Origin: Burkholderiales bacterium
GTDB taxonomy: Bacteria; Pseudomonadota; Gammaproteobacteria; Burkholderiales; Rhodocyclaceae
Assembly (NCBI GenBank): GCA_964203325.1
Contig: CAXNNH010000001.1
Location: 1-46,990 of the forward strand
Direction: 5' to 3'
DNA: 46,990 nucleotides
The notes beneath the pieces were generated by a model. The model searched no databases and was not told the origin of the DNA. It was given only the letters and a program-made list of their open reading frames with translations. Position numbers and translations under genes: made by a program. Numbering within the stretch: position 1 is the stretch's first letter; every line of letters starts with the position of its first letter. Shown piece by piece: positions 1,036 to 46,448 of this stretch.

Positions 1036-1797
<762 letters not shown>

Positions 1798-3883: not shown

Positions 3884-4007
3884 TGCTCTGTTTGAACACG
3901 GGTAAGCTGAAATCATATGAGTTTCGGATTCGTCAGGAATAAATGTTCATGTTCAAGAATAACCCATGCGTCAAATTCAATATTTTTACCAATGTTGCTA
4001 AACTCTC

Positions 4008-5123: not shown

Positions 5124-5221
5124 CTTAAGCTCGAATATGGAAACTAATGGCTGGCGAATTAGCGTCGCTATGCATTAATTATATAAAGTCTTTGCATTTA
5201 AAATGGCGATAGATCGAACTG

Positions 5222-5851: not shown

Positions 5852-6079
5852 TAGCCAAAATGATGTGCTTATTAATTAGGTTCGTGGATAGCGGCATTAA
5901 TTCTGATCGAAGGGGGCTCCAGTAATGAACAACCGATTTTTTCAGTGATTTCCCTAACGAATCGTTAGTTGTGTAGAAAGTGATTATCAGGTTATGTGTG
6001 TAATGAGTTACTAAATCTTTCTACTTATCAGAGGCAAGATGTGAACACTGTGATAAGAGGCTGAACGCAACAAAATTAT

Positions 6080-15975: not shown

Positions 15976-16054
15976 TCTCATCTTATGTTTTTTCGCGCTG
16001 ATGTCGCTGTTTTTGACGTATGAATAATATTCGATCTTTTACGCAATAATCAAC

Positions 16055-17038: not shown

Positions 17039-17135
17039 TAACTATGATATTGCTTTGAATAGGTGTTGCTATGCCTTGGCGGGGCAATTTAAATTATTTA
17101 ATTTAGTTCTGTATTATTATATCGCGGAAGAAAAA

Positions 17136-24862: not shown

Positions 24863-24887
24863 AGGCCGCGTCTGGAAGCTCGCCAAC

Positions 24888-25706: not shown

Positions 25707-25722
25707 GCCGCCGAACGCCAGC

Positions 25723-34906: not shown

Positions 34907-35748
34907 AAATTCTGATTCTGGGGGGGACCCGCTACATGGGTCGCGCCGCCGCCAGGCGCCTGTCGACGGCGGGGCACGAGGTAATCAGCGTTAGCCGCAC
35001 TCCGATTGAGGGCGGTACGATCCGGCATCGGGTCTGCGATCGCAAGGATGGCGCCGCCTTGGATGCACTGGTGCGCGAGGAGGAACCCTCGGCCATACTG
35101 GACATGGTTTGTTTCGACGCTGGTGACGGCGCCGGTATGGCGCGTCTGTTCGAGTCCGGCGCGCTGTCGGGCTTGCGCCACTACCTGATGGTTTCCACCT
35201 TCTTTCCCTACAACTACTTCGACGCGCGCGAAGCCCCGTTTGCGGGCGACCCGACGGCGATCGCGGATGGTTACACGCGGCGTAAGGTGGAAGCGGAGGC
35301 AATCATCAAGGCTGGCGCCTTGTTCGGCAGGAGTTCGATCCTGCGCCTGCCATTCGTCTTCTCCCATGACGACTACACGGGAAGGTTTCAACGTCTCTGC
35401 GAAATGGTGCGAGATGGCCGGGTTGCGGCGACGGGTACGTCGTCCTGGCGTACGTCGATGATTGCCATGGAAGACGCGGCAGGAGCACTTGCGAATATTC
35501 TGCAAGGCCCGCCGTTGGGGTACGCCGACATTGCTAACGCCGGCTGCTTGACCGCGCATGAAATCGCCGCTGTTGTTGCCGCGGCACTGGACTGTTCCTG
35601 TGAGTTCAACGGCGCGGACGACCCCGGTACGATCTATGGGCTCAGCCGCGATCTCTGCCTGGATTCGGCCAAATCGCCGAAGCTGCGTCCCCTGGCCGAA
35701 GCACTGGCCGACGAAGCGAAACAATGGAGCACACAACATGGCGATTAA
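34903..35748 (+). CDS. NAD(P)-binding Rossmann-fold protein (atypical/extended SDR, epimerase/reductase-like)
   Basis: MKILILGGTRYMGRAAARRL is a GGTxxxG nucleotide-binding motif. 281 aa; ATGA-coupled to the upstream gene. Confidence 0.6.
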   Translation: MKILILGGTRYMGRAAARRLSTAGHEVISVSRTPIEGGTIRHRVCDRKDGAALDALVREEEPSAILDMVCFDAGDGAGMARLFESGALSGLRHYLMVSTFFPYNYFDAREAPFAGDPTAIADGYTRRKVEAEAIIKAGALFGRSSILRLPFVFSHDDYTGRFQRLCEMVRDGRVAATGTSSWRTSMIAMEDAAGALANILQGPPLGYADIANAGCLTAHEIAAVVAAALDCSCEFNGADDPGTIYGLSRDLCLDSAKSPKLRPLAEALADEAKQWSTQHGD

Positions 35749-36739
35749 AGTCCTGGTTAGCGGCGCCGGCGGCGATGTCGGGCAGGGGGTATTGAAGGCG
35801 CTGGCCGCGTCATCCCTCGATATCGAGGCCCACACCACCTGCATTGGCCCGCACAGTTCCTGGTTGTACCAGCCGGGCGTCAACAGCTTCATCGCCCCCC
35901 TGTCCGCTGCCGAGGACTATGTTCCTTTCCTGATCCGCCTGATCCGACGCCATGGCATTCAGGTGTTCTTCCCCACCGTGGACGGAGAAATCACCAAGAT
36001 CGCGCGAGAAAAAGCACGCATCGAAGGCGAGACCGGATGCCTGGTGTTCGTGGATGGCGAAGACAAAGTCGCGGTCAGCGACGACAAGTTCAACACCGCC
36101 GAATTTCTCCGCGGTCATGGTTTTGCCTACCCTGCTTCGGCCATCGCCGTCGGCCCGCAAGCCCATGCGCTGGCCGACCGGCTCGGCTTCCCGCTGATCG
36201 TCAAGAAACGTAGCGGCAAGGGCTCCCAGGATGTGTTCCTGGTTCGGGATTCGGCGGAACTGGAACGCCGCCTGGGCGACCCTTCCTTCGTCGTCCAGGA
36301 GTGGCTGGACCCCGAACAGGGCGAGTACACCTCCGGCCTTTATCTCGGCGATGATGGCGAGATAAAGGGTGTCTGTACTTTCCGCCGCCAGCTTAAAGGC
36401 GGCTCCACCTACATCGCCGAACGCATCATCGACCCTGCGCTGGAACAGCCGCTGGAACGCATCGCCCGGACCCTGGGCATGAAGTATCTGAACATCCAGT
36501 CGATGCGCCGGGGTGACGAACTGGTGCCGTTCGAATTCAACGGCCGCCTCTCCGGCACCACTGCAATGGTATCCAGGGTGTTCAACGCCCCGGAGATGTT
36601 TATCCGCGAGCGACTTCTGGGCGAGCGACTCGCGCGCGTGGACAACACGACGCGCTTTGTCGCCATGCGTTACTACGAGGAGGTCTACGCGAATCCGGAA
36701 CAAGTGGACGCCCTCATCGCACGGAGCACCGAAATATGA
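35738..36739 (+). CDS. ATP-grasp ligase (carbamoyl-phosphate-synthase-L-like ATP-binding fold)
   Basis: Start taken at the internal ATG 35738 (MAIKVLVSGAGGDVGQG). PLIVKKRSGKGSQDVFLV holds the ATP-binding Lys. VVQEWL is present and FEFNGRLSG is the E-x-N-x-R Mg/ATP motif. Confidence 0.7.
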   Translation: MAIKVLVSGAGGDVGQGVLKALAASSLDIEAHTTCIGPHSSWLYQPGVNSFIAPLSAAEDYVPFLIRLIRRHGIQVFFPTVDGEITKIAREKARIEGETGCLVFVDGEDKVAVSDDKFNTAEFLRGHGFAYPASAIAVGPQAHALADRLGFPLIVKKRSGKGSQDVFLVRDSAELERRLGDPSFVVQEWLDPEQGEYTSGLYLGDDGEIKGVCTFRRQLKGGSTYIAERIIDPALEQPLERIARTLGMKYLNIQSMRRGDELVPFEFNGRLSGTTAMVSRVFNAPEMFIRERLLGERLARVDNTTRFVAMRYYEEVYANPEQVDALIARSTEI

Positions 36740-37422
36740 CCGCCTGCGTGCTGTTCGATTTCGCCGACACCTTGGCGGAGCTGCATCCCAACCGTATGGA
36801 TATCGTTGCCGATTACATCCTCACCGTCGGCGGCATCCAGATCGGTCAGGACGCCATTGCCCGCGCCTATAAGTCGGTCGACCTGCTGTTGCCCTACAGT
36901 TCGGTGAAGACCCGCACCCAGGCGCAGCGGGACGAGTTCTATCGGGAATACAACCGTCAGTTGTTCGTCCTGCTCGGCGTCGCCCATCGCGCCGATCCCG
37001 CCGGCCTGATCGCCGCCTTCGGTGAACGCCGCGCACACTGGGCGCTCAAGCCGGGCGTTCGCGACACCCTTGCCGAACTGCGCCGACGCGGCTATCGCAT
37101 CGGCATCATCTCCAACTTTGACAGCCGCCTGGAACAGGTGGTCTACGAGTTCCTCGGCCTTGCCGGTACGGTCGATTACCTGCACATCTCGCAGACCGAG
37201 GGCGTGGAGAAGCCCGACCCACGGTTCTACCTCGGTTTCTTTGAGCGGCATGGCCTGGATATCGAACAATCGGTCTATGTCGGCGACAGCTACACCCTGG
37301 ATTTCCTGCCCGCCAGCGGCATCGGCCTCAAGGCCTGGTTGCTCGATGAGGCCGGCCTATATCCGCATTTACCCGAGGCGATCCGTGACATTGCCGAATT
37401 GCCTGGCCTGCTGCCCGCATGA
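36736..37422 (+). CDS. HAD-superfamily hydrolase (subfamily IA-like)
   Basis: Motif I is CVLFDFADTL (nucleophile Asp). IGIISNFD is present and motif IV is VYVGDSYTLD. Confidence 0.65.
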   Translation: MTACVLFDFADTLAELHPNRMDIVADYILTVGGIQIGQDAIARAYKSVDLLLPYSSVKTRTQAQRDEFYREYNRQLFVLLGVAHRADPAGLIAAFGERRAHWALKPGVRDTLAELRRRGYRIGIISNFDSRLEQVVYEFLGLAGTVDYLHISQTEGVEKPDPRFYLGFFERHGLDIEQSVYVGDSYTLDFLPASGIGLKAWLLDEAGLYPHLPEAIRDIAELPGLLPA

Positions 37423-37802
37423 GCACACAAGTCCAGATGCTGCGCTTCGCGCTGGTGGGTCTGGCCTCCAACGCGGTGCTGTATCTGGTTTATCTCGGCA
37501 TGACCACCGCCGGACTCGGCCCCAAGCTTGCCATGAGCCTGGTCTATGGCATCGGCGTGGCGCAAACCTTCTTATTCAACAAGCGCTGGACCTTTAATCA
37601 TTCTGGACGTTTCGATACCGCTTTGCTGCGCTATATCGCCGTCTATGCCGGCGGCTACGTCGCCAACCTGCTGGTGTTGGCCTGGCTGGTGGATGGGTTA
37701 GGTTATCCGCATCAGATTGTGCAGGGTGTGATGATTCTGACGCTGGCGGGTTGTTTCTTTCTGTTGCAAAAATTATGGGTATTCAGAACGGGGCGGATAT
37801 GA
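37419..37802 (+). CDS. GtrA-family small membrane protein (lipid-linked sugar translocation-associated)
   Basis: 127 aa with four hydrophobic segments. FALVGLASNAVLYLVYL...FLFNKRWTF is the GtrA family signature. Confidence 0.75.
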   Translation: MSTQVQMLRFALVGLASNAVLYLVYLGMTTAGLGPKLAMSLVYGIGVAQTFLFNKRWTFNHSGRFDTALLRYIAVYAGGYVANLLVLAWLVDGLGYPHQIVQGVMILTLAGCFFLLQKLWVFRTGRI

Positions 37803-38926
37803 ACATTCCATTCAACAAGCCTTACATGACCGGAAAAGAACTCTGGTACATCGCTCAAGCGCACCACAACGGCTGGCTGGCGGGCGATGGTGGGTTTACG
37901 AAACGCTGTAATACCTGGTTGGAGCAGCGTACCGGCGCACGTAAGGCACTGCTGACACATTCCTGCACGGCAGCGCTGGAAATGGCTGCCATCTTGGCCG
38001 ATATCCAGCCTGGCGATGAAGTGATCATGCCGTCTTACACTTTCGTCTCCACCGCCAACGCTTTCGTGCTGAGAGGTGCGGTGCCAGTGTTCGTAGACAT
38101 ACGCCCGGATACCCTGAATATTGATGAGACGCTGATCGAAGCCGCTATCACCGAAAAAACTCGCGCCATTGTTCCTGTGCATTACGCCGGCGTGGGCTGC
38201 GAGATGGATGCCATCATGGACATCGCCACACGGCACGGTCTGCTGGTCATCGAGGATGCTGCGCAAGGCATCATGTCGACTTACAAAGGGCGTCCATTGG
38301 GCAGCATCGGCCACCTCGCCGCGCTCTCCTTCCATGAGACCAAGAACATCATTTCCGGCGAGGGTGGCGCGCTGTTGGTGAATGACCCGGAACTGGCGGA
38401 GCGGGCCGAGATCATTCGCGAGAAGGGCACGAACCGCAGCCAGTTCTTCCGCGGGCAAGTCGACAAATACACCTGGGTGGACATCGGCTCTTCCTATCTA
38501 CCGAGCGAACTGATCGCCGCTTTCCTGTGGGCGCAGATGGAAGAAGCGGATGCCATCACGCGACGTCGCCTGGGCATCTGGCAGACTTACCACAGCGCTT
38601 TCGCTGATCTGGAACAGCGCGGCAAGGTACGCCGTCCGCAAGTGCCCGCCGACTGCGTCCACAACGCCCATATGTATCAGCTCCTGCTGCCCAGCCTGGA
38701 AAAACGCACAGCGTTCATTGCGACGCTGAAGTCGGGCGGCATCAGTAGCGTGTTCCACTATGTGCCGCTGCATTCGGCGCCCGCCGGACGCCTGCACGGT
38801 CGTGTATCAGGCGGCATGCGCCATACATTGGAACTGTCGGACCGCCTGGTCCGACTGCCGCTTTGGGTTGGGCTGGAAGATGACCAGAACGAGGTTATCC
38901 GCCAGGTCATCGCCGCCGCCGAATGA
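37799..38926 (+). CDS. wecE: dTDP-4-amino-4,6-dideoxy-hexose (TDP-4-oxo-6-deoxy-D-glucose) transaminase, WecE-type
   Basis: Start at ATG 37799 (MNIPFNKPYMTGKEL). Long near-identical runs to remembered E. coli WecE: GDGGFTKRCNTWLEQR, IQPGDEVIMPSYTFVSTANAFVLRGA, VFVDIRPDTLNIDETLIEAAIT, VPVHYAGV, FHETKN and AEIIREKGTNRSQFFRGQVDKYTWVDIGSSYL. Confidence 0.9.
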   Translation: MNIPFNKPYMTGKELWYIAQAHHNGWLAGDGGFTKRCNTWLEQRTGARKALLTHSCTAALEMAAILADIQPGDEVIMPSYTFVSTANAFVLRGAVPVFVDIRPDTLNIDETLIEAAITEKTRAIVPVHYAGVGCEMDAIMDIATRHGLLVIEDAAQGIMSTYKGRPLGSIGHLAALSFHETKNIISGEGGALLVNDPELAERAEIIREKGTNRSQFFRGQVDKYTWVDIGSSYLPSELIAAFLWAQMEEADAITRRRLGIWQTYHSAFADLEQRGKVRRPQVPADCVHNAHMYQLLLPSLEKRTAFIATLKSGGISSVFHYVPLHSAPAGRLHGRVSGGMRHTLELSDRLVRLPLWVGLEDDQNEVIRQVIAAAE

Positions 38927-38927
38927 C

Positions 38928-40367
38928 ATGAGCCGCCGTTATCTGCCCTGGGCGGTCGCTGCTCTGTACCTGTTGTTCCTGTTTCCGACGCCGGAGTTCC
39001 CACCCTACAACGCTGATGACGGTAGCTGGTTCGTCACCATCGGCTGGAATCTGGCGCAATACGGCCGCTATACCAGCGACACCTTCCCGCTTGCCGAATA
39101 CGGCCATCACGCCGCCTGGCCGCCGTTGTTCGCCGGTATTCTGGCCGGGGTGATCTCGCTTTTCGGTCTCAACTGGCTGGCGCTCAAGTTGCTGATGGCG
39201 CTGATCGGGCTGGGCGCGCTGGCGCTGCTGCTTCGCCTGTGGCGAGACGACTCACCCGGTGCTTGGGCGGTGCTGCTTACCGCGTTGAGCCCCGCGATAT
39301 TCCTCTTCAGCCACCACACCATGACTGAAATGCCCTATATCGCGGCGGTCAGCGCCGCGTTGCTGGGACTTTCCCACGCGAGCAGCGGCCGCGGCGCGTT
39401 TCTCGCCGGCCTGCTTGCGGTGCTGGCGTTCTTCACCCGAGGTTACGCGGTGATCTTTCTGCTCGCCGGGCCGCTTTATTTCATGTTGCGGCCCTGGCCC
39501 ATGCGGCAGCGCTTGATCGCCTGCCTGGCCTATATCCTTCCTCTGATCGTCGCAGTGTTTGTTTGGAAAGGCTACACCGGCCAGGTCATTGCCAACTTGC
39601 CGCTGGACTGGATCAGCGAGCGTTTTGGCAATGGCGCCGGCCTGCTGCAAAGCCTGCTACGTTCCCCGGTGGAGTATGCGCAGCGCCTGTACTGGTTTGA
39701 ACTGCGCTACCCCGCGCATTTCCTGTTGCCGCTGATTCCGCTTGAATGGGCCTTGCGGCATGACCTTGCATTGGCGCTTTCGCTGCCGCTTCTGGCCATC
39801 ATCGGCTATGGCTGGCTGACCCTGTTCCTGCGCCGGCGCGGCGCGGTGGAATGCTGGCTGCCGCTGGCGCTGGCATTTTTGCTGGTCCCAAGCAGCGGCG
39901 CCGCGCGTTACCTGATCCCCTTCCTGCCTTTTCTGTTCTATTACCTGTTGCATGGCCTGCGCGAGATCAGCCAGCGTCTGCCACGCCTGGCGTTGGCCGC
40001 ACGCCTGACGCCTTACGCGCTGCTGCTGGTGACTGGCACCGCTCTCGCCTGGCATCTGACCGCTCCGGATCAGCTGCGTTTTGTGTCGGCAGACAGCAAG
40101 GATTACCGTGATGTCGCGCTCTGGGCAGGCGCAAACCTGCCGTTGGATGCCGTGGTGCTGGCGCCGGCCTCGCATCGCTTCCTTGCGGCCAGCGGCCGAA
40201 ACACCTGGCCGATCGAGCGTTTGCCCGACCCGCCTGAAGCGATTCAGCGCGGCAACCGGCCGATCTATCTGCTGTGTACGCCCGAAACGCCAGCGGCCCG
40301 CTGCGCCGGACTGAGCAATCCGGTTCAGCGTCAGGGTCGCATCGCCTTACATATGATCCGGCCATAA
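38928..40367 (+). CDS. GT-C fold polytopic membrane glycosyltransferase (ArnT/PMT family 39/83-like)
   Basis: Start at ATG 38928 (MSRRYLPWAVAALYLLFLF), 1 nt after the wecE stop. About 12 hydrophobic segments. An acidic first-loop motif (YNADDGSWF) and a WPPLF motif are present. The C-terminal soluble domain is ~100 aa. Confidence 0.7.
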   Translation: MSRRYLPWAVAALYLLFLFPTPEFPPYNADDGSWFVTIGWNLAQYGRYTSDTFPLAEYGHHAAWPPLFAGILAGVISLFGLNWLALKLLMALIGLGALALLLRLWRDDSPGAWAVLLTALSPAIFLFSHHTMTEMPYIAAVSAALLGLSHASSGRGAFLAGLLAVLAFFTRGYAVIFLLAGPLYFMLRPWPMRQRLIACLAYILPLIVAVFVWKGYTGQVIANLPLDWISERFGNGAGLLQSLLRSPVEYAQRLYWFELRYPAHFLLPLIPLEWALRHDLALALSLPLLAIIGYGWLTLFLRRRGAVECWLPLALAFLLVPSSGAARYLIPFLPFLFYYLLHGLREISQRLPRLALAARLTPYALLLVTGTALAWHLTAPDQLRFVSADSKDYRDVALWAGANLPLDAVVLAPASHRFLAASGRNTWPIERLPDPPEAIQRGNRPIYLLCTPETPAARCAGLSNPVQRQGRIALHMIRP

Positions 40368-40385: not shown

Positions 40386-41453
40386 TCAGCGCAGGTTGGA
40401 GTTACCTGCGGACTTCATTCTCTGCGTGATTGATTCAGTCCTGGCGAGCAAATCTCGCCTGATCTCCAGCGGCGTCATGCTCTGTCCATTCAATTCCCGC
40501 ATGAACCACTCGAAATAGCCGCGTGATTTTCCAAGGAAGCGGCTTAAATCGGCTTCGTTGCGAACATAGGGCGTGTAGCCAGGGTGAACCGACGGGGAGT
40601 GAAAGCTGAAGACGAAGATACGTTGGCCTTCATCCAACATGGCGCGTGTCATGCGTTGCATTTCCGCCAGCGTGTAGTCCTCGGGGGAGAGGCGGATGCG
40701 TTCGAAGGCACGCAGGCGGGAGGTGATGCCGGGTAGACGCGCCCAATTCAGTTTGGGATGAGTAATCAGGCGGTAGAACGGGGCGCCGGCGTTTTTCAGC
40801 CAGCCGGCGTAGCAGCCGCCGCCCGGTAGGCCGAGTAATTTGCGCTGTTGGCCGAACCAGAATGGTTCCGCGGTATAGCCTGAGTAATCCGGGCCGCCGT
40901 CACTGCTGTAGTCGATGGGGGGGGCGATGCTGATATCGACTTCGTAGCCGAGTTCTTCCAGGATGGCGGCGCTGTTGGGGCCGTTGCCGTAGCGGCCGGC
41001 CAGGTAGGTGAGGGGGCGTTTGCCGAAATTCTGTTCGATGGTGTCGGTAAGTTGGCGCACCTTTTCGTATTCGAGTTCGCGCGGCAGGTTGCCCGGGTAG
41101 GTATTGGCGCGTGTCAGTTGTTCGGTCAACGGCGGCGATACCCAGGGGTGCAGGTGGGTGCCGATCAGGGCGCGGCCTTCATCCTGATAGCGGCGCAGGG
41201 TCTCGTAGCCCAGCGGTTGACTGGCGATGGGGTAGTCGATGACGTAGTTGGGGACAATGCCGTAGGCGTCGAATATTTCCTGGGCGCGGCTGATGTGGCG
41301 CATGTGTTCGACGCCGATTTCCGTGCGCGAGTGTTCGCTGTTCCAGTCGAATTCTTCTTCGGTGTGGATGACCACCGACAGGATAGGGCGTGTATCGGCT
41401 GGAACAGCAATGTGTTGCGCGTTGGGGAAGAGGTCAGAGATCGAGGGCGACAT
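40386..41453 (-). CDS. Polysaccharide deacetylase-like protein (WalW-type)
   Basis: ILSVVIHTEEEFDWNS...GTHLHPWVSPP...VFSFHSPSV shows acid/His motifs of a deacetylase-fold family that I recall as 'WalW' in EPS loci. Confidence 0.5.
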   Translation of the reverse strand: MSPSISDLFPNAQHIAVPADTRPILSVVIHTEEEFDWNSEHSRTEIGVEHMRHISRAQEIFDAYGIVPNYVIDYPIASQPLGYETLRRYQDEGRALIGTHLHPWVSPPLTEQLTRANTYPGNLPRELEYEKVRQLTDTIEQNFGKRPLTYLAGRYGNGPNSAAILEELGYEVDISIAPPIDYSSDGGPDYSGYTAEPFWFGQQRKLLGLPGGGCYAGWLKNAGAPFYRLITHPKLNWARLPGITSRLRAFERIRLSPEDYTLAEMQRMTRAMLDEGQRIFVFSFHSPSVHPGYTPYVRNEADLSRFLGKSRGYFEWFMRELNGQSMTPLEIRRDLLARTESITQRMKSAGNSNLR

Positions 41454-42297
41454 ATTCTGAATAGAGGTTCTGGATGTCGGCTTCGCCCAGTGTGTCGCTG
41501 CAGAATACTCGGTGGCGGTAGCCTGTTAGTTCGGTGTGCGGCCAGGCGGGTTTGTTCGGCAGCAAGCGCGTTTCCACCCGCGTGGTTGCCATGCCTGAGA
41601 GCAGGAAGTGGCAGCCGAGAACGGGCAGGTATTGTTGAAAGGTATCCGGGTTGGTGAAGCCGATGATTTCGGCGCTGGGCAGGTTTTTCAGGCTGGCACG
41701 TTTGTAGATGACCAGACTGCGGTTGCTGCCTTTACCGACAGCGAGGAAGTTGAGCCAGGGGAAATGCTTGTGGTCTCGGTAGACTTTGGCCGATGCCGCG
41801 TCCAGCACGTGTTCGATGCGTTCCGGGTTGCTGACGATGCCCGCGCCGGTGAGGCGCTGATGCGGCGCCGGCAGGTTGAACAGCACGGTGCGCGCTTCGT
41901 TCATGGGTTTGAACTTGAGGAACTTGAGCGACTGCTCCACCACGGCGGTGGGGGATAGGTCGGTGAAGTGGAAGCCGGGTTGCGAGATCACCGCCATTGC
42001 GAGGCGCATGCTCTGGGTACGGTAGGCGTCGAGCACCATCCAGCTAGTGATGTTGCAGAACTGTTCGAGTTTGCCGCGAACCGGGTAGGCGCCGTAAATG
42101 GCGCCGATGCCGCCGACGATTTCTCCGGCTTCGTCACGGATCAAGAAGCCGTTGTTGGGCTTGTTTACGCCCCAGTTCTGGCGAAAGGCTTCTGCCCAGA
42201 TATCGGCTGGGTGGCTGGGGTTGAGGTGTTTGTGCAAAAAAGCGCAGAACGCCGGCAGATCCTCGTCGCGGATAGGTTCGAGTTTGGGCAGGGCCAT
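41434..42297 (-). CDS. GNAT-fold acyltransferase-like protein
   Basis: Start preferred at 42297 (MALPKLEPIRDEDLPAFCAFLHKHL). The central FLIRDEAGEIVGGIGAIY...ITSWMVLDAYRTQSMRLAMAV fits the GNAT beta4-alpha3 core. The gene overlaps the downstream deacetylase-like gene by 20 nt. Confidence 0.5.
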   Translation of the reverse strand: MALPKLEPIRDEDLPAFCAFLHKHLNPSHPADIWAEAFRQNWGVNKPNNGFLIRDEAGEIVGGIGAIYGAYPVRGKLEQFCNITSWMVLDAYRTQSMRLAMAVISQPGFHFTDLSPTAVVEQSLKFLKFKPMNEARTVLFNLPAPHQRLTGAGIVSNPERIEHVLDAASAKVYRDHKHFPWLNFLAVGKGSNRSLVIYKRASLKNLPSAEIIGFTNPDTFQQYLPVLGCHFLLSGMATTRVETRLLPNKPAWPHTELTGYRHRVFCSDTLGEADIQNLYSEYVALDL

Positions 42298-42419
42298 ATT
42301 GGTATTTGTGAGTCCGTGGGAGCGGCAAGACGTTAGCACAAAGGGCAATAAAACTGGGTTAAGCTCGCGACCCAAGAATTTTGGTGTTGGAGCAGTCTTT
42401 AGTTAGTTTTGAGCAGGGC

Positions 42420-42518
42420 GTAGGTTGGGTTAGCCGACGTCTTTTTGTCGGCGTAACCCAACATGGCCGAGGTGAAGTCGGGTTACGGCGCAAAAAGACG
42501 CGCCTAACCCGACCTACA
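42420..42518. repeat. REPIN, family C (two inverted GTAG-headed hairpins)
   Basis: The forward unit is GTAGgttgggttagccgacgtctttttgtcggcgtaacccaac. The reverse complement of 42478-42518 is GTAGgtcgggttaggcgcgtctttttgcgccgtaacccgac. The loop (tcttttt) is identical and the stems differ by compensatory changes. Confidence 0.8.
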
Positions 42519-42521
42519 AGT

Positions 42522-42550
42522 CCTGGACCCCGGCCTCCGCCGGGGTGACG
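42522..42550 (-). repeat. REP hairpin, family D
   Basis: On the minus strand it reads cgtcaccccggcggaggccggggtccagg. The frame is the same as cgtcattccggc...gccggaatccag at 46188 and 46416. Confidence 0.65.
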
Positions 42551-42604
42551 GTTGTTTTGAAGTTTTTGTGTTTTTCGTCATCTTGTCAGTGATGTTTTTT
42601 GTGG

Positions 42605-42677
42605 GTGCGGTCTTTAGCCGCGAAGAGGTGTGGCGGGCTTTGGAGCGATGGATTTCGCGGCTGAAGCTCGCTCCTAC
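42605..42677. repeat. REPIN, family B
   Basis: ...tttagccgcgaag...gatttcgcggctgaagctcgctcCTACgg. The arms ttagccgcgaa / ttcgcggctga pair with each other, and the right arm matches the 20175-20242 element. Confidence 0.6.
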
Positions 42678-42760
42678 GGGGTGTTGGTTTTTTGATGGTT
42701 TTCTTGCGGTTGATGCGGTTCTTTCGATCTGCGGCTTTTTAATTTCTTGCGATAGCCTCC

Positions 42761-44767
42761 ATGTCTAGCTTTCCTATTCCCGGCTTCGAACGTGACGCTC
42801 ATGGCAAACCGATCATCGGCCTGACTCCGGATGCGCTCTATGCCTATGGCCATCTGATCCGCTCCAGCGAGCTTTTGGTGCTTGATCAGTTTTCTCGCGG
42901 GTTGGTCTCCGGCACGACCCATACCTGCCTGGGCCAGGAAATCTGTGCGATGGCTGTGGTGCGGGCGCTGACGCATCCGGAAGATGCGGCATTGTCGAAT
43001 CACCGTAATCATGGTCATTTTCTGACCTATTCCGGTGAGTTCGTCGGCCTGGTGGCGGAGATCATGGGTCGCGCCGATGGCGCTTGCGGCGGGCGTGGCG
43101 GTAGTCAGCATCTGGTTTGGCGCCACTTTCATTCGAATGGTGTGCAAGGCGGCATGACCGGCATTGGCGCTGGCCTGGCTTTGGCGCGCAAGTTGCATGG
43201 CAGCGGTGCGGTGGTTGCCGCGATGATTGGCGATGGCACTTTGGGCCAGGGTTTGTTGTACGAGGCGATGAATCTGGCTTCGGTGTGGTCGGTGCCTTTC
43301 CTGGTGGTGGTGGAGAACAACGGCATTTCGCAAACCACGGAACCGCATCAAAACCTGGGCGGTGATATTCAGGCGCGCGGCGCGGCTTTCGGTTTGCAGA
43401 CCTGGCGGGTGGACGATGCTTCTGCCGATTTCTTCGAGCAAGTCGCGGCGGCGGTACAGCAGGTGCGCGAGAGCCAGCGGCCTGGCTTTTTGGTCATCGA
43501 TACCCGCCGCATGGGGCCGCATTCCAAGGGGGATGATCTGCGTGATGAGGCGGTGGTCGCCGCCATCCGCGAACGTGATCCGCTAACCGCGATGGGACGC
43601 CGGCTCTCGGATGCGGTGCGTGATGAAATTGAAGCGCGCAATGCTGCTTTCATCGAGGAGGTGAGGGAAGCCGCCAATGCTTCACCGGAAGCGCTTTGTG
43701 ACGATGCACCGGAACATATTTTCGACCGTGCCGGCGAGCTGGAAGGCCCGGTGCCAAGTTATCCGGTGGTGGCTGCGAAGACCAGCGTGCGCTTGTGCAT
43801 CAATGCCGCGTTGAATCATCTGTTGGCGACTTACCCGGAAACCATCGTGCTGGGTGAAGACCTGCATGATCCTTATGGCGGCGCTTTCAAGGTTACCCAG
43901 GGTTTGAGCACCGCCTATCCCGGTCGCGTGATTTCCACGCCGATTTCCGAAGCCGGCATTACCGGCGCCGCCATCGGCCTGGCGATGGATGGCTTCCGTC
44001 CGATTCTGGAAATCATGTTTGCGGATTTTCTTTCGCTGTGCATGGATCAGCTCTACAACCATGCGGTGAAGTTTCCCGGTGTGTTTCCGGAAGTGATGGT
44101 GCCGTTGATTCTGCGCACACCCTCCGGCGGCCGTCGCGGTTACGGTCCCACGCATAGCCAGAGCCCGGAGAACATCTTTACCGCGATACCGGGTTTGACC
44201 GTTCTTTACGGTAGTCATCGTCACGATGTTGCCCGGTTGCTGGTCGATGCGTCTCGCCGTTGGCCTTATCCGACGTTGTTTCTGGAACACAAGCTGCTGT
44301 ACGGCGAAACGCAGGATGCTGGCGGTTACGACATGCTCACGCCCGATCCGGATGACATCGCCGCCCATCTTTTCCCGACACTGATTCGTCGCCGCCCGGA
44401 CGCGGACCTGACGATTGTTGCCTATGGCGGCATGTTGCCGGTGGTGGAAGAAGCGGCGCAGCGCCTGGAAGACGAGGAGGAGTTGATGGTGGATATCGTC
44501 GTGCCTTCACTGCTTTCGCCGCTGCCGCGCCGCACTTTGCTGGCGCATCTGATGAGCAGCGAGAAGGTGGTGATCGCCGAGGAATCGCACCACGAATTCG
44601 GCATTGGTGCGGAAATCGCCGCTTGCCTGCTGGAAGCCGGTTTTCAAGGCCAGGCTTTCCGCATCGGCACGCCGCCGGTTCCCATCGCTTCCGCGCGCAG
44701 CCTGGAGCGCCAGATTCTGCCGGATGCCGATAAGCTGATCGAAGACATTCTGGATAACCTGTACTGA
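42761..44767 (+). CDS. Fused E1 alpha/beta thiamine-diphosphate-dependent 2-oxoacid dehydrogenase component
   Basis: 668 aa. The alpha part carries the TPP motif IGDGTLGQGLLYEAMNLASVWSVPFLVVVENNG (GDG-x26-NN). The beta part has VLGEDLHDPYGGAFKVTQGL, TPISEAGITGAAIGLAMDGFRPI and RGYGPTHSQS. Confidence 0.85.
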   Translation: MSSFPIPGFERDAHGKPIIGLTPDALYAYGHLIRSSELLVLDQFSRGLVSGTTHTCLGQEICAMAVVRALTHPEDAALSNHRNHGHFLTYSGEFVGLVAEIMGRADGACGGRGGSQHLVWRHFHSNGVQGGMTGIGAGLALARKLHGSGAVVAAMIGDGTLGQGLLYEAMNLASVWSVPFLVVVENNGISQTTEPHQNLGGDIQARGAAFGLQTWRVDDASADFFEQVAAAVQQVRESQRPGFLVIDTRRMGPHSKGDDLRDEAVVAAIRERDPLTAMGRRLSDAVRDEIEARNAAFIEEVREAANASPEALCDDAPEHIFDRAGELEGPVPSYPVVAAKTSVRLCINAALNHLLATYPETIVLGEDLHDPYGGAFKVTQGLSTAYPGRVISTPISEAGITGAAIGLAMDGFRPILEIMFADFLSLCMDQLYNHAVKFPGVFPEVMVPLILRTPSGGRRGYGPTHSQSPENIFTAIPGLTVLYGSHRHDVARLLVDASRRWPYPTLFLEHKLLYGETQDAGGYDMLTPDPDDIAAHLFPTLIRRRPDADLTIVAYGGMLPVVEEAAQRLEDEEELMVDIVVPSLLSPLPRRTLLAHLMSSEKVVIAEESHHEFGIGAEIAACLLEAGFQGQAFRIGTPPVPIASARSLERQILPDADKLIEDILDNLY

Positions 44768-44775
44768 GGAACACT

Positions 44776-45885
44776 ATGGCTCACGCCCTGCACGCCCCGC
44801 GCGTCAACAATAACGACGATATTGTCCAGGTCATCGCCTTCCGCGTCGGCGTTGGCGATTTCGTCAAGCAAGGCGACGTCGTTCTCGATGTGGAAACCGA
44901 CAAGGCGATTGTCGAAGTCGCCGCCGAGAAAGATGGTTATGTGCTGAAGCTGATGTGCGAGATCGACGACAAGGTCGCGGTTGGCTCCATCCTGCTCTGG
45001 CAGGGGGAAAGTGCCGATGAACCGGTGCCGGAAATCGAGGTTGCTACTGCGGCTGCCGGTGGCGGTGGTAATGCACGCCCCACTGCCAAGGCGCGTGCCT
45101 TGCTGAAGGAACTCAGCCTGGACTCCAGTGTGATTCCCCTCGCTGGCGACCGTTTGACGCTTGCCGATGTGGAATCCTATATGGCCGCGCATGGCATCAA
45201 GCGTCGCGACCACACTCCCGCCGTTGCTGTTTCGGCGCAGGAAAGCCTGCCGGATGTGCCGGGTGAGTTGCGCGATCTCAATGCCGAAGAGCGTGGCATG
45301 CTGATTACCGTGTCCTGGCATCGCGACCATGCCGCCGCGACCTATCTGGAAGTGGAATACGACCCGAAAGCCTGGGAAGACCACGCCGCCGCCTATGCCA
45401 GCGCCAACAAGTTGATGCTTTCGCCGCTGCTGCCGCTGCTGGCTTACCGCCTGGTGCAACTGGTCAAGGCCAGCCCTCGACTTAACGCCACAGTGGTGAA
45501 CGGCAAGCGCTTCGAGTACCAACCGGTGAACCTGGGTTTTACCGTGCAGGCCGGTGAAACGCTGTATCTGACCGTGGTGCGCGATGCCGCGTCGCTGGAG
45601 ACCAAGCAATTCATCGAGAACCTGGGTGAAGTGCAACGCCATGCTCTGCAACGCAAGCTTTCTCGCGATGAAACCACCGGCGCGACCATCGCTTTTTCCA
45701 GCATGGCGCGCTGGAACGTCAGCCGCCACATTCCTATTTTGCCGCCCTATTGTTCGCTGATGATCGCCCACGCCGCGCCCAAAGGCAGCGGCCGCGCCGT
45801 GCTAGGCGCCAGCTACGACCACCGCGTGCTGTCGGGCTTTGACGTAGCCCGTTTGTTGATGGAACTGGCCAAGCCACCCGTCTGA
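44776..45885 (+). CDS. Lipoyl-domain E2 acyltransferase (2-oxoacid dehydrogenase E2-like)
   Basis: The lipoyl attachment motif is VLDVETDKAIVEV. A PSBD-like segment follows (ARPTAKARALLKELSLDSSVIPLAGDRLTLADVESYM). The catalytic domain ends in SYDHRVLSG, a variant of the canonical DHRxxDG. The gap to E1 is 8 nt. Confidence 0.8.
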   Translation: MAHALHAPRVNNNDDIVQVIAFRVGVGDFVKQGDVVLDVETDKAIVEVAAEKDGYVLKLMCEIDDKVAVGSILLWQGESADEPVPEIEVATAAAGGGGNARPTAKARALLKELSLDSSVIPLAGDRLTLADVESYMAAHGIKRRDHTPAVAVSAQESLPDVPGELRDLNAEERGMLITVSWHRDHAAATYLEVEYDPKAWEDHAAAYASANKLMLSPLLPLLAYRLVQLVKASPRLNATVVNGKRFEYQPVNLGFTVQAGETLYLTVVRDAASLETKQFIENLGEVQRHALQRKLSRDETTGATIAFSSMARWNVSRHIPILPPYCSLMIAHAAPKGSGRAVLGASYDHRVLSGFDVARLLMELAKPPV

Positions 45886-45907
45886 TATATCAACCAAGGA
45901 AACCCGA

Positions 45908-46174
45908 ATGAACCTCGACCGTGATGCAATCAAAGCCGCTGTGCGCGCTAAAGTAATCGAACTGGCGAAAAATCTCGGCATGGATGCCAGCGAAATTGGC
46001 GACGACGACATCATCCCCGCTACTGGCTATGTTGACTCTGCTGCCATCCTGGAACTGGTGGTCTGGTACGAAGACGCCTACCAGATGCCGTTGAAGCAGG
46101 AAGAAATCAACATCGACAACCTTGGCTCGATCAATTCAATGACCGAGTTTGTGCTCAAGCGCAAGGGCGGCTGA
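45908..46174 (+). CDS. Acyl carrier protein (standalone)
   Basis: 88 aa. GYVDSAAILELVVW fits the phosphopantetheine site D-S-x-x-x-x-E-L. It is an acidic helical protein, 22 nt downstream of E2. Confidence 0.75.
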   Translation: MNLDRDAIKAAVRAKVIELAKNLGMDASEIGDDDIIPATGYVDSAAILELVVWYEDAYQMPLKQEEINIDNLGSINSMTEFVLKRKGG

Positions 46175-46187
46175 ACTCGCCAACGAT

Positions 46188-46220
46188 CGTCATTCCGGCA
46201 TAGTTCTGGCCGGAATCCAG
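46188..46220 (+). repeat. REP hairpin, family D (possible terminator of the ACP operon)
   Basis: cgtcattccggcatagttctggccggaatccag, with stem attccggc/gccggaat. It begins 14 nt after the ACP stop. Confidence 0.65.
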
Positions 46221-46305
46221 TTCGTTGGCGGGTGGCATAGGAGTATTCGATGCGTTGGGTCTGGATACCGGCTTACCCCACACCGGTATGACGGCGGTGG
46301 GTTTT

Positions 46306-46378
46306 GTAGGATGGGCAAAGCTTGCGTGCCCATCAGGCGCTGCGGATTGATGGGCACGCTGCGCTTGGCCCATCCTTC
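46306..46378. repeat. REPIN, family A architecture
   Basis: GTAGgatgggcaaagcttgcgtgcccatca ggcgctgcggat tgatgggcacgctgcgcttggcccatccttc. There are two inverted hairpins (gatgggca/tgcccatc each), the same architecture as 521-602. Confidence 0.7.
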
Positions 46379-46415
46379 GGTGGTTGCCACCCTTCAATGT
46401 CGCGAATTAATGGGT

Positions 46416-46448
46416 CGTTATACCGGCATGATTCTGGCCGGAATCCAG
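46416..46448 (+). repeat. REP hairpin, family D, second direct copy
   Basis: cgttataccggcatgattctggccggaatccag; most of its 33 positions match the 46188 copy. Confidence 0.65.

What the first reader, a model, noticed from the sequence alone, without database searches (positions are those of the whole stretch)
42761..46174. E3-less 2-oxoacid dehydrogenase pair (fused E1 alpha/beta + lipoyl-E2) in one operon with a private acyl carrier protein, embedded in a glycan locus
Seen in sequence:
- Three genes are separated by only 8 and 22 nt.
- The first is a fused E1 with an intact TPP motif (GDG-x26-NN).
- The second is an E2 with a lipoyl Lys (ETDKA), a PSBD-like linker and a catalytic His in a variant motif (DHRVLSG rather than DHRxxDG).
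- The third is an 88-aa ACP with a D-S phosphopantetheine site.
- No dihydrolipoyl dehydrogenase (E3) gene follows; REP elements do.
- Every neighbour is a glycan-tailoring gene rather than a catabolic one.

Established knowledge: E2 enzymes transfer the acyl group from dihydrolipoamide to the phosphopantetheine thiol of CoA, and holo-ACP presents the same thiol arm.

Inference: this module may convert a 2-oxoacid directly into acyl-S-ACP. That acyl-ACP would be a dedicated donor for N- or O-acylation of the amino sugar made by the adjacent wecE operon. As far as I know this route is not a characterised way to decorate polysaccharides.
Basis: partly seen in the sequence, partly recalled or inferred. 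Interest (0 to 1): 0.8.

Follow-up and report, generated by a model that had tools for sequence, protein, structure and literature searches.

The report
Lipoyl enzyme pair feeding a carrier protein
A pyruvate-dehydrogenase-like enzyme pair sits beside its own small acyl carrier protein, an acyltransferase and a deacetylase as a five-gene cassette found in the sugar-polymer gene clusters of well over a hundred bacterial species; it probably makes an unusual carrier-bound acyl group for decorating those polymers, which nobody appears to have tested.

Summary

The triad is far from chance:
- In 80 genome loci (E2 identity 45-98%; Beta- and Gammaproteobacteria, Acidobacteria, a planctomycete), E1 lies directly upstream in 66/68 and the ACP directly downstream in 75/77.
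- No E3 signature occurs within 10 kb of any triad.

- A 287-aa protein predicted to be a tandem-GNAT acyltransferase, present in 48/52 loci.
- A WalW/CE4-like deacetylase.

In 25 other loci the deacetylase is replaced by the two "exosortase A system-associated" hydrolases, next to the XrtA-associated ligase and decarboxylase. WecE is not a conserved neighbour.

Best reading: E1/E2 load an acyl group onto the ACP rather than CoA, as QncN/L/M do in NRPS pathways. The GNAT then N-acylates an amine freed by the deacetylase. Neither the acyl group nor the acceptor is known.

Verdict: a real, uncharacterised new variant of a known kind.

The parts
40386..41453 (-). WalW/CE4-like 'polysaccharide deacetylase' fold protein (355 aa). 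It is the second gene of the divergent pair and its start overlaps the end of the GNAT gene by 20 nt.
   Evidence: No Pfam or NCBIfam hit at threshold; weak Polysacc_deac_1 hit, E=0.05. Sources name homologues 'WalW protein' or 'polysaccharide deacetylase family protein'. AF2 model pLDDT 78.7, pTM 0.83. Foldseek top hits are HP0310 (3qbu, 1.3e-8), 3rxz, PuuE (3cl6) and ArnD (8t0j). It co-occurs with the triad in 35 loci and never together with hydr1/hydr2. It is 61% identical to the neighbour of a 62%-identical E2.
41434..42297 (-). Tandem-GNAT-fold acyltransferase (287 aa). The mechanical ORF extends to 42375 from a TTG, but homologues are 285-287 aa and start at the ATG at 42297. It is the proposed consumer of the acyl-ACP.
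   Evidence: Annotated 'hypothetical protein' in all sources, with no precomputed Pfam domain. 10 of 13 members weakly hit GNAT Acetyltransf_1 (best 1.7e-3) and 8 hit Acetyltransf_9. AF2 pLDDT 86.7. Foldseek top hits are two-domain GNATs: 2ozg (1e-9), Eis2 (6rft), N-myristoyltransferases, VipF and MAB_4324. Present in 48 of 52 loci with enough flank.
42298..42760 (.). 463-nt divergent intergenic region between the GNAT/deacetylase pair and the E1-E2-ACP operon. It contains GC-rich palindromic repeats (about 42424-42520).
   Evidence: Sequence read directly. No sigma-70 or sigma-54 consensus found, so the promoters are unidentified.
42761..44767 (+). Fused E1 alpha/beta: a ThDP-dependent decarboxylase/dehydrogenase of the heterotetrameric PDH/BCKDH class.
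   Evidence: Pfam E1_dh, Transket_pyr and Transketolase_C. NCBIfam PDH E1 alpha 177 bits and E1 beta 158 bits, far below the equivalog cut-offs of 394 and 321. Nearest solved structures are 1ik6 (1.5e-40), 1um9_B and human PDH E1 alpha (1e-31). GDG-x26-NN motif. Directly upstream of E2 in 66/68 loci. Natural E1-E2 fusions occur in metagenomes.
44776..45885 (+). E2 with a single lipoyl domain, a PSBD-like linker and an acyltransferase catalytic domain carrying the family-specific motifs FSSMARW and YDHR[VL]L[ST]G. Its C-terminus is shortened.
   Evidence: The Pfam 2-oxoacid_dh match ends at model position 221/232 at residue 365/369. The alignment to E. coli E2p ends 14 residues before that protein's C-terminus. 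136 clusters at 50% identity score E<=1e-30 among 1.84 billion representatives.
45908..46174 (+). Dedicated 88-aa acyl carrier protein; phosphopantetheine Ser44 lies in the motif PATG-x-[ILV]-DS.
   Evidence: PP-binding 19.7 bits. Best NCBIfam matches are other dedicated ACPs (OlsHI ACP 35 bits, AmcB). D43-S44 invariant in 78/78. Directly downstream of E2 in 75/77 loci.
46187..46448 (.). Cluster of REP-like palindromic units immediately after the ACP stop codon. It marks the end of homology with the nearest related locus.
   Evidence: Direct repeat at 46187-46220 and 46415-46448, and inverted repeat at 46175-46233. The pattern gives 3 sites against 0.09 expected. Homology to L004 stops at 46177.

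Best explanation
The finding is the core of a self-contained five-gene cassette that supplies and transfers an acyl group within a cell-surface glycan locus.

Shown:
- E1 alpha/beta, lipoyl-E2 and a dedicated ACP are co-linear and conserved as a unit across phyla.
- They always lack a local E3.
- They almost always travel with a tandem-GNAT acyltransferase.
- They also carry either a WalW/CE4-like deacetylase (as in this window) or the two 'exosortase A system-associated' alpha/beta hydrolases.

Inferred mechanism:
1. The fused E1 decarboxylates a 2-oxo acid, or cleaves a ketose or hydroxy-ketone donor, on ThDP.
2. It reductively acylates the lipoyl-Lys43 of E2.
3. The E2 catalytic domain (His349, Ser308/309) transfers the acyl group to the phosphopantetheine thiol of the holo-ACP (Ser44) instead of to CoA.
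4. A housekeeping E3 encoded elsewhere re-oxidises the dihydrolipoyl arm, docking on the retained PSBD-like linker.
5. The CE4-like enzyme removes an N-acetyl or N-formyl group from an amino sugar in the glycan or its precursor.
6. The tandem GNAT re-acylates the freed amine from acyl-S-ACP.

This is the same logic as NodB/NodA/NodF or LpxC/LpxD. In some relatives an MBOAT may use the same donor for O-acylation.

The acyl group is not identified. E1 is closest to pyruvate-type E1s, so short groups are the candidates: acetyl, propionyl or glycolyl.
For: - Conserved order and tight spacing: E1 to E2 in 66/68 loci, E2 to ACP in 75/77 loci, with median gaps of about 18 and 37 nt.
- All catalytic hallmarks are kept: the ThDP motif, lipoyl Lys, catalytic His/Ser and the ACP Asp-Ser.
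- No E3 signature in 1.39 Mb of flanks.
- All three proteins score far below the PDH, OGDH and acetoin equivalog cut-offs, so they form a separate subfamily.
- The cassette is the only segment shared between the window and its nearest relative. No ligase, acyltransferase or ketosynthase in it could load the ACP instead.
- The partner proteins have a tandem-GNAT fold and a CE4/WalW fold.
- Contexts are glycan/EPS loci: Wzm/Wzt, GTs, sulfotransferase and deacetylase; Poly_export and FemAB-like; Bac_transf and MBOAT; XrtA-associated TIGR03098-03101.
- Biochemical precedent for PDH-like E1/E2 loading an ACP: QncN/L/M and SclQ1-4 (PMC6335953).
- The E2 C-terminus is about 7 residues shorter than canonical E2s. 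Established knowledge places the inter-trimer contact of cubic and dodecahedral E2 cores there. A trimer-only E2 would leave the CoA-side channel open to a protein substrate. This last step is a low-confidence inference.
Against: - No direct evidence exists that E2 acylates the ACP rather than CoA. The catalytic domain is an ordinary CAT-like E2 fold and could still use CoA.
- The ACP scores just below Pfam's threshold.
- In the XrtA-type loci a second ACP and an AMP-forming ligase are present, so carrier-protein chemistry there does not have to start from E2.
- The GNAT and CE4 assignments rest on predicted structures with modest TM-scores (0.4-0.6) and sequence identities of 10-16%.
- The acceptor is unknown. 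Four loci with adequate flanks lack the GNAT altogether.
- A pyruvate-type E1 making acetyl-ACP would seem redundant with acetyl-CoA.
Confidence: 0.5

Rival explanations
1. Same architecture, but the E1 is not a 2-oxoacid decarboxylase. Like QncN/QncL it would take a C2 unit from a ketose phosphate (or from hydroxypyruvate), so the product is glycolyl-S-ACP and the glycan carries N- or O-glycolyl groups. This rival concerns only the substrate and the acyl group; the ACP-loading mechanism is unchanged.
For: QncN/L are also PDH-E1/E2-like by sequence yet are described as using ketose phosphates to make glycolicacyl-S-ACP on a dedicated ACP (PMC6335953). There is no cellular glycolyl-CoA pool, which would explain a private pathway better than acetyl transfer does. 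E1 scores far below the PDH equivalog cut-offs.
Against: The domain fusions differ. Here alpha and beta are fused and E2 is separate, whereas in Qnc alpha is separate and beta is fused to the lipoyl and acyltransferase domains. I could not obtain the Qnc sequences, so relatedness is untested. E1's nearest solved relatives are true 2-oxoacid E1s.
Confidence: 0.2
2. E2 makes an ordinary acyl-CoA as a local supply for CoA-dependent GNAT or hexapeptide acyltransferases in the locus. The ACP is loaded independently, by a housekeeping enzyme or by the AMP-ligase in XrtA-type loci, and serves a different step.
For: The E2 catalytic domain is a canonical CAT-like fold with the usual His/Ser. Most solved GNATs that resemble the 287-aa protein use acyl-CoA. 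XrtA-type loci carry ligase_PEP_1 plus a second ACP.
Against: The ACP is glued to E2 in 75/77 loci, including the 35 WalW-type cassettes that contain no ligase. The cassette moves as a unit between unrelated flanks. A CoA-producing complex would not need a private carrier protein.
Confidence: 0.2
3. The cassette does not decorate a glycan. It builds a small N-acylated amine or lipid, or acylates PEP-CTERM proteins, linked to the exosortase system. Its position in a glycan locus reflects only co-regulation of surface structures.
For: In 25 loci the triad is followed by hydr2_PEP and hydr1_PEP. It also lies near ligase_PEP_1, the PLP decarboxylase dCO2ase_PEP1 and a second ACP, a set that looks like small-molecule biosynthesis. 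[quoted passage not shown] 2011, cited in PMC11631085). The GNAT's structural neighbours include protein N-myristoyltransferases.
Against: The window and its close relatives carry the WalW/CE4 variant. Of the XrtA-system families, the scanned window ORFs give only matches far below cut-off: stp2 and stp3 for the GT4 gene and PrsT for a TPR protein. CE4-fold enzymes act mainly on sugar N-acetyl or N-formyl groups. MBOATs and sugar-priming transferases sit next to some triads.
Confidence: 0.2
4. It is an ordinary catabolic acetoin, pyruvate or branched-chain 2-oxoacid dehydrogenase that merely happens to lie beside a glycan locus and borrows E3.
For: The best family and structure hits are PDH/BCKDH components. 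Sharing of E3 between complexes is common (established knowledge).
Against: Scores are 2-10 fold below every equivalog cut-off. The ACP and GNAT linkage is invariant. No catabolic neighbours were found in 80 loci, whereas glycan/EPS genes were found in the loci whose neighbours were annotated. E2 has a single lipoyl domain and an altered DHRxxDG motif conserved family-wide.
Confidence: 0.03

Closest known systems
QncN/QncL/QncM of quinocarcin biosynthesis, with NapB/D and SclQ1-4 of scleric acid (Peng et al. 2012 PNAS, as described in PMC6335953)
   Same: ThDP-dependent PDH-E1-like protein(s), a lipoyl domain and an E2-type acyltransferase domain are encoded next to a dedicated ACP. No E3 gene is listed among the Qnc/Scl proteins described. 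The product is an acyl-S-ACP used as a biosynthetic building block.
   Different: - Fusion pattern: Qnc has alpha alone and beta fused to the lipoyl and acyltransferase domains. Here alpha and beta are fused and E2 is separate with a PSBD-like linker.
- Context: actinomycete NRPS clusters versus Gram-negative glycan/EPS loci.
- Consumer: an NRPS module versus a tandem GNAT (or MBOAT).
- Substrate: shown to be ketose phosphate for Qnc, unknown here.
- Sequence relatedness could not be tested.
Heterotetrameric-E1 2-oxoacid dehydrogenase complexes (Gram-positive/mitochondrial PDH, BCKDH, acetoin dehydrogenase)
   Same: Domain families, ThDP motif, lipoyl-Lys, PSBD-like segment and CAT-like catalytic His/Ser.
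   Different: - E1 alpha and beta are fused.
- No E3 lies nearby in any of 80 loci.
- The catalytic motif is DHRxL[ST]G instead of DHRxxDG.
- The C-terminus is shortened.
- Scores fall below all equivalog cut-offs.
- There is an obligatory adjacent ACP and a biosynthetic rather than catabolic context.
NodB / NodA / NodF (Nod-factor N-acylation) and LpxC / LpxD (lipid A) (established knowledge)
   Same: The logic is the same: a deacetylase frees a sugar amine, and an N-acyltransferase re-acylates it from an acyl-ACP. For Nod factors the donor is a dedicated ACP.
   Different: The acyltransferase here is a tandem GNAT, not a NodA or LpxD fold. The acyl group would come from a lipoyl-dependent oxidative decarboxylation, not from fatty-acid synthesis. 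The acceptor is unknown.
XrtA/PEP-CTERM 'exosortase A system-associated' gene set (NCBIfam TIGR03098 ligase, TIGR03099 decarboxylase, TIGR03100/03101 hydrolases)
   Same: In 25 related loci the E1-E2-ACP triad and the GNAT are embedded in exactly this set. All of these genes are functionally uncharacterised and defined by context.
   Different: The window carries the other cassette variant, with the WalW/CE4 deacetylase instead of the two hydrolases. Its scanned ORFs reach no XrtA-system family cut-off. No NCBIfam model names the E1, E2, ACP or GNAT of this module.
Dlt system (DltA/DltC/DltB/DltD) and other MBOAT-based polymer acylation (established knowledge)
   Same: A small dedicated carrier protein donates an acyl group to a surface polymer. 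8 related loci have an MBOAT near the triad, including the nearest relative L004, where it lies directly after the ACP.
   Different: In Dlt the carrier is loaded by an adenylating ligase, not by a lipoyl-E2. No MBOAT lies within the window.

Membership tests
2-oxoacid dehydrogenase complex (PDH/BCKDH/acetoin DH) | E1 with a ThDP-binding motif and alpha plus beta domains | tested here: met
   Pfam E1_dh, Transket_pyr and Transketolase_C; GDG-x26-NN
2-oxoacid dehydrogenase complex (PDH/BCKDH/acetoin DH) | E2 with a lipoyl-lysine and a CAT-like catalytic His/Ser | tested here: met
   K43, S308/309 and H349 are invariant, but the DHRxxDG Asp is replaced by Ser/Thr
2-oxoacid dehydrogenase complex (PDH/BCKDH/acetoin DH) | Scores above the curated equivalog cut-offs for a named complex | tested here: not met
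   E1 alpha 177 vs 394 bits; E1 beta 158 vs 321; E2 79 vs 722; acetoin E2 39 vs 307
2-oxoacid dehydrogenase complex (PDH/BCKDH/acetoin DH) | Cognate E3 (dihydrolipoyl dehydrogenase) in the operon or neighbourhood | tested here: not met
   No GGxCxxxGCxP or CxxxGCxPSK motif in 84 sequences, 1.39 Mb. An E3 elsewhere in the genome cannot be tested from a 47-kb window.
2-oxoacid dehydrogenase complex (PDH/BCKDH/acetoin DH) | Product is acyl-CoA, in a catabolic or central-metabolic context | not testable with these tools
   The context is glycan/EPS in every locus whose neighbours were annotated. The acceptor thiol needs biochemistry.
Qnc-type E1/E2 to ACP acyl-unit systems | PDH-like ThDP enzyme plus lipoyl/acyltransferase domains encoded next to a dedicated ACP | tested here: met
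   the description of QncN/L/M is in PMC6335953
Qnc-type E1/E2 to ACP acyl-unit systems | Qnc domain architecture (alpha alone; beta fused to the lipoyl and acyltransferase domains) and an NRPS context | tested here: not met
   Here alpha is fused to beta and E2 is separate. No NRPS families turned up in the neighbours scanned.
Qnc-type E1/E2 to ACP acyl-unit systems | Sequence or phylogenetic affiliation with QncN/L/M; ketose-phosphate substrate | not tested
   The Qnc sequences (AFJ11255-57) were not retrievable with these tools and the primary paper is not held
Acyl carrier protein (PF00550) | Pfam gathering score | tested here: not met
   19.7 bits vs 20.8
Acyl carrier protein (PF00550) | Conserved Asp-Ser phosphopantetheine site at the start of helix II in a protein of about 80-90 aa | tested here: met
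   D43-S44 invariant in 78/78; best NCBIfam hits are dedicated ACPs
XrtA/PEP-CTERM (exosortase A) associated cassette | Neighbouring TIGR03100/03101 hydrolases and TIGR03098/03099 ligase and decarboxylase | tested here: not met
   Absent from the window. Present next to the homologous triad in 25 other loci, above cut-off.
GNAT acyltransferases (the 287-aa partner) | GNAT fold | tested here: inconclusive
   No Pfam hit at the gathering score. 10/13 members give weak hits. The AF2 model matches tandem GNATs at E 1e-9 to 1e-7 with TM 0.4-0.5.
CE4 / polysaccharide deacetylase superfamily (the 355-aa partner) | Deacetylase-type (beta/alpha) barrel fold | tested here: inconclusive
   Pfam E=0.05 only. 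Foldseek gives 3qbu at 1.3e-8 and 3rxz with TM 0.5-0.67. Homologues are named WalW or polysaccharide deacetylase. Metal and catalytic residues were not examined.

The most novel reading that the evidence does not exclude
A widespread and so far unrecognised route to acyl-ACP. A lipoyl-dependent E1/E2 pair would oxidatively convert a keto compound directly into acyl-S-ACP, bypassing CoA. This would supply an unusual short acyl group, possibly glycolyl, that a tandem GNAT (or an MBOAT) installs on exopolysaccharide or O-antigen-like glycans. The route would occur in more than 130 species of Proteobacteria, Acidobacteria and Planctomycetes. The same triad would be the missing 'acyl source' of the long-unexplained exosortase-A-associated ligase/decarboxylase/hydrolase gene set.
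Probability: 0.4. Interest if true: 0.8.

Novelty: new variant of a known kind. Interest (0 to 1): 0.65.

Why it matters
- It would add a CoA-independent, lipoate-dependent way of activating acyl groups to glycan biosynthesis. Until now this chemistry is documented only for a few actinomycete NRPS products.
- It gives a concrete, testable biochemical role to a conserved block of "hypothetical" or generically annotated genes in the EPS and floc-forming loci of environmentally important bacteria: Thiobacillus/Hydrogenophilales, Methylomonas, Accumulibacter, Dechloromonas, Nitrosomonas and Acidobacteria.
- It offers an entry point into the exosortase-A-associated cassette, whose function has been unknown since it was defined by genome context.
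- It corrects automated annotation, which calls these genes pyruvate dehydrogenase components and so inflates central-metabolism reconstructions of MAGs.

Tried and rejected
- Profile searches of the GNAT-like and WalW-like families against PDB sequences found nothing significant. Structure prediction was needed instead.
- Sigma-70 and sigma-54 consensus scans of the divergent intergenic region found nothing above chance.
- The REP-like palindrome was searched in the 85 fetched loci and gave no matches. Its status as a genome-wide REP therefore cannot be confirmed.
- Four literature searches looked for PDH-like genes or ACPs in O-antigen, PEP-CTERM or floc EPS clusters. None describes this module. 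Two candidate papers on PEP-CTERM biofilm and floc clusters do not mention these genes.
- The primary Qnc paper (PMC3365175) is not held, and the Qnc sequences could not be fetched for a phylogeny.
- The nearest out-group E2 clusters carry only generic names.
- The WecE link was rejected because WecE is absent from 79 of 80 related loci.
- The catabolic reading was rejected: no E3, no catabolic neighbours, and scores below cut-off.
- I looked for E2-ACP fusion proteins as Rosetta-stone evidence. Among the three longest of the 150 best representatives I found only E1-E2 fusions.

Full report
**1. The observation**

- E1: Pfam finds E1_dh, Transket_pyr and Transketolase_C in the first protein, so it is a true E1 alpha/beta fusion. 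Its translation contains GDG-x26-NN.
- E2: Pfam finds Biotin_lipoyl plus 2-oxoacid_dh.
- ACP: only a sub-threshold PP-binding match, 19.7 bits against a cut-off of 20.8.
- NCBIfam places E1 and E2 nearest to pyruvate dehydrogenase components, but 2-10 fold below every equivalog cut-off.
- In an alignment of 16 E2 family members, the lipoyl Lys43, the FSSMARW motif and the catalytic His349 in YDHR[VL]L[ST]G are invariant. The usual Asp of DHRxxDG is always Ser or Thr.
- A family profile aligns end to end with E. coli E2p (7b9k).
- The ACP's Asp43-Ser44 is invariant in 78 of 78 distinct homologues.
- Downstream of the ACP there is no further ORF in the remaining 816 nt. Instead there is a cluster of three palindromic units, with 0.09 expected by chance. 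Whether these are genome-wide REPs cannot be tested.

**2. Not chance: a conserved unit**

The E2 has more than 1000 relatives with E<=1e-10 in the 5.8-billion-protein collection; the 120 best listed are at least 54% identical, and the rest include ordinary E2s. A scan of one genome per species returned 136 species carrying the subfamily-specific motifs, and 80 loci were fetched.

- E1 lies immediately upstream on the same strand in 66 of 68 loci with enough flank.
- The ACP lies immediately downstream in 75 of 77.
- E2 identity in these loci runs from 45% to 98%.
- Hosts include Hydrogenophilales/Thiobacillus MAGs (the window's nearest relatives), Methylomonas, Methylobacter, Rhodocyclales (Accumulibacter, Dechloromonas, Azonexus, Rhodocyclus), Burkholderiales, Nitrosomonas, Acidobacteria and a Gemmataceae MAG.
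- A search of all 1.84 billion 50%-identity representatives gives 136 clusters at E<=1e-30. Scores grade down into ordinary multi-lipoyl E2s at about 120 bits.
- Some metagenomic proteins are E1-E2 fusions.

**3. No E3, not catabolic**

No class-I disulfide-reductase signature occurs in any reading frame of the 84 sequences, 1.39 Mb in total. Being "E3-less" within 10 kb is therefore a property of the whole family. Neighbours are never acetoin or branched-chain catabolic genes. The glycan or EPS genes found beside the triad include:

- Wzm/Wzt, GT2/GT4, sulfotransferase and CE4 deacetylase.
- Poly_export, TPR and FemAB-like genes.
- Bac_transf and MBOAT.

The window itself is a large Wzt-type glycan locus.

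**4.

The two divergently transcribed genes upstream, 41434-42297 and 40386-41453 on the - strand, travel with the triad.

- In a locus whose E2 is only 62% identical, they are 54% and 61% identical and in the same arrangement.
- The 287-aa protein is present in 48 of 52 loci with enough flank.
- The window and its nearest relative (L004) are homologous only over 40465-46177, which is these five genes. The flanks are unrelated. The five genes therefore behave as a cassette.

The 287-aa protein:
- It is "hypothetical" in every source and has no Pfam domain.
- 10 of 13 members give weak GNAT hits.
- An AlphaFold2 model (pLDDT 86.7) matches two-domain GNAT acyltransferases: 2ozg, Eis2, N-myristoyltransferases, VipF and MAB_4324, at E 1e-9 to 1e-7.

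The 355-aa protein:
- Some sources call its homologues WalW or polysaccharide deacetylase.
- Its model (pTM 0.83) matches CE4-type deacetylases: HP0310, 3rxz, PuuE and ArnD.

WecE, by contrast, is found near the triad in only one other locus. The proposed link to the wecE product is not supported as a general feature.

**5. Two cassette variants and the exosortase connection**

- Variant 1 (35 loci, including the window): E1-E2-ACP plus the GNAT plus the WalW-like deacetylase.
- Variant 2 (25 loci, E2 48-55% identical to the window's): the ACP is followed at fixed spacing by "hydrolase 2" and "hydrolase 1, exosortase A system-associated" (TIGR03101 at 252 bits, TIGR03100 at 297 bits, both above cut-off), then by the GNAT.

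The two variants never mix. Variant 2 loci also often carry:
- the exosortase-A-associated acyl-CoA ligase (TIGR03098, 789 bits),
- the PLP decarboxylase (TIGR03099, 605 bits),
- a second ACP,
- an XrtA-type amidotransferase-like AsnB.

Other accessory genes:
- Eight loci have an MBOAT near the triad, including L004 where it lies directly after the ACP.
- Eleven loci have, directly after the ACP, a homologue of the window's unknown gene at 32624-33811.
- Acidobacterial loci replace the GNAT with other unknown proteins.

The constant element is E1-E2-ACP. The variable element is an acyl-transfer or hydrolase partner.

**6. Mechanism**

What is shown: catalytically intact E1, lipoyl-E2 and ACP are obligately linked, lack a local E3, lie in biosynthetic contexts, and partner with an acyltransferase-fold protein and a deacetylase-fold protein.

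What is inferred:
1. E1 reductively acylates the E2 lipoyl arm.
2. E2 passes the acyl group to the ACP's phosphopantetheine instead of CoA.
3. A housekeeping E3 recycles the lipoyl arm. The retained PSBD-like segment would allow it to dock.
4. The CE4-like enzyme exposes an amine.
5. The tandem GNAT re-acylates that amine from acyl-ACP.

The main argument for E2-to-ACP transfer is parsimony: the minimal cassette contains no other ACP-loading enzyme. There is also a biochemical precedent. QncN/QncL/QncM are PDH-like ThDP and lipoyl/acyltransferase proteins with a dedicated ACP, and they generate glycolicacyl-S-ACP from a ketose phosphate for an NRPS. SclQ1-4 is a second example (PMC6335953; the original work is Peng et al. 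2012, which is not held).

A further, weak hint is that the family's E2 ends about 7 residues earlier than canonical E2s. Established knowledge places the inter-trimer contact of the large E2 cores there. A trimeric E2 would make the CoA-side channel accessible to a protein substrate.

The deacetylate-then-acylate logic mirrors NodB/NodA/NodF and LpxC/LpxD (established knowledge).

The acyl group is unknown. E1's closest relatives are pyruvate-type E1s. Acetyl-ACP would be redundant with acetyl-CoA, so propionyl or glycolyl (Qnc-like) are attractive but untested.

**7. Rivals**

- (a) The same machine, with a ketose or hydroxypyruvate substrate giving glycolyl-ACP.
- (b) E2 makes acyl-CoA and the ACP is loaded by something else.
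- (c) The product is a small N-acyl amine or lipid, or a protein modification tied to the exosortase system, rather than a glycan substituent.
- (d) An ordinary catabolic complex.

Rival (d) is effectively excluded by context, scores and the ACP linkage. Rivals (a) to (c) need biochemistry.

**8. Novelty and verdict**

Source annotation of the three proteins is generic: "2-oxo acid dehydrogenase subunit E2", "pyruvate dehydrogenase E2 component", "hypothetical protein". No NCBIfam model names the module. Four full-text searches found no paper describing it in O-antigen, EPS or PEP-CTERM loci.

The chemistry has a precedent in NRPS pathways. I therefore rate this a new variant of a known kind, not categorically new.

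Interest is 0.65. The cassette is a widespread, conserved, uncharacterised and directly testable piece of glycan and exosortase biology.

Noticed in passing
window 32624-33811 (-): A 395-aa protein with an N-terminal hydrophobic segment and no Pfam or NCBIfam hit. Its homologues lie directly after the ACP gene in 11 related loci, so it may be a further accessory of the module even though it sits 7 kb away in the window.
   Followed up: partly
L039-L083 (25 loci), e.g. L066:11403-13183 and L080:4007-5611: The 'exosortase A system-associated' hydrolase 1/2, acyl-CoA ligase and PLP decarboxylase families (TIGR03098-03101) are physically interleaved with the E1-E2-ACP triad, the GNAT and a second 88-aa ACP. 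The long-unexplained XrtA-associated cassette therefore appears to include a lipoyl-dependent acyl-ACP source.
   Followed up: partly
L004:11677-13230 and seven other loci: An MBOAT-family membrane O-acyltransferase lies near the triad in 8 loci, directly after the ACP in the window's nearest relative. In the window itself that position is occupied by REP-like repeats and no ORF.
   Followed up: partly
window 21353-30602 and L001:12107-15820: The window and a locus whose E2 is only 62% identical (Gammaproteobacteria-labelled MAG) share a further gene set: GT2, Polysacc_deac_1, GT2 and a sulfotransferase. The window adds a sulfatase/phosphodiesterase-like 862-aa ORF. This suggests a sulfated, partly de-N-acetylated Wzm/Wzt-exported glycan.
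   Followed up: no
window 34903-38926: Upstream of WecE lies an operon-like run of an SDR/epimerase-like gene, an ATP-grasp ('carbamoyl phosphate synthase-like') gene and a HAD phosphatase. An ATP-grasp ligase next to a 4-amino-sugar transaminase could itself attach an acid to the amino sugar. That would be an alternative fate for the WecE product, independent of the ACP module.
   Followed up: no
window 38760-40367 (+): A 535-aa ORF with no family hit. Its 5' end overlaps wecE by 167 nt, so the real start is probably internal. From about residue 57 (MSRRYLPW...) the sequence is strongly hydrophobic, which suggests a polytopic membrane protein. It is not conserved near the triad except for a fragment in L005.
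   Followed up: no
window 42424-42520 and 46187-46448: GC-rich palindromic repeats sit in the divergent intergenic region inside the cassette and immediately after the ACP gene. Homology to the nearest relative ends 3 nt after the ACP stop codon.
   Followed up: partly
window 3001-7000 and 15001-18000: GC content drops to 0.40-0.48 in these stretches of glycosyltransferase and aminotransferase genes, against 0.55-0.66 elsewhere. This suggests a mosaic origin for the glycan locus.
   Followed up: no
window 1069-1662 (+): A 197-aa ORF matches GDP-mannose 4,6-dehydratase over only 44 residues (model positions 170-213 of 342). It is probably a gene remnant or a mis-framed ORF.
   Followed up: no
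window 9307-10998 (+): A 563-aa protein with DUF5060 and an apiosidase-like glycoside-hydrolase domain lies inside the glycan biosynthesis locus.
   Followed up: no
P0376, P0400 (metagenomic proteins): Apparent natural E1-E2 fusion proteins of this subfamily: the E1 C-terminal domain runs straight into the lipoyl domain. They could also be frameshift or assembly artefacts.
   Followed up: no
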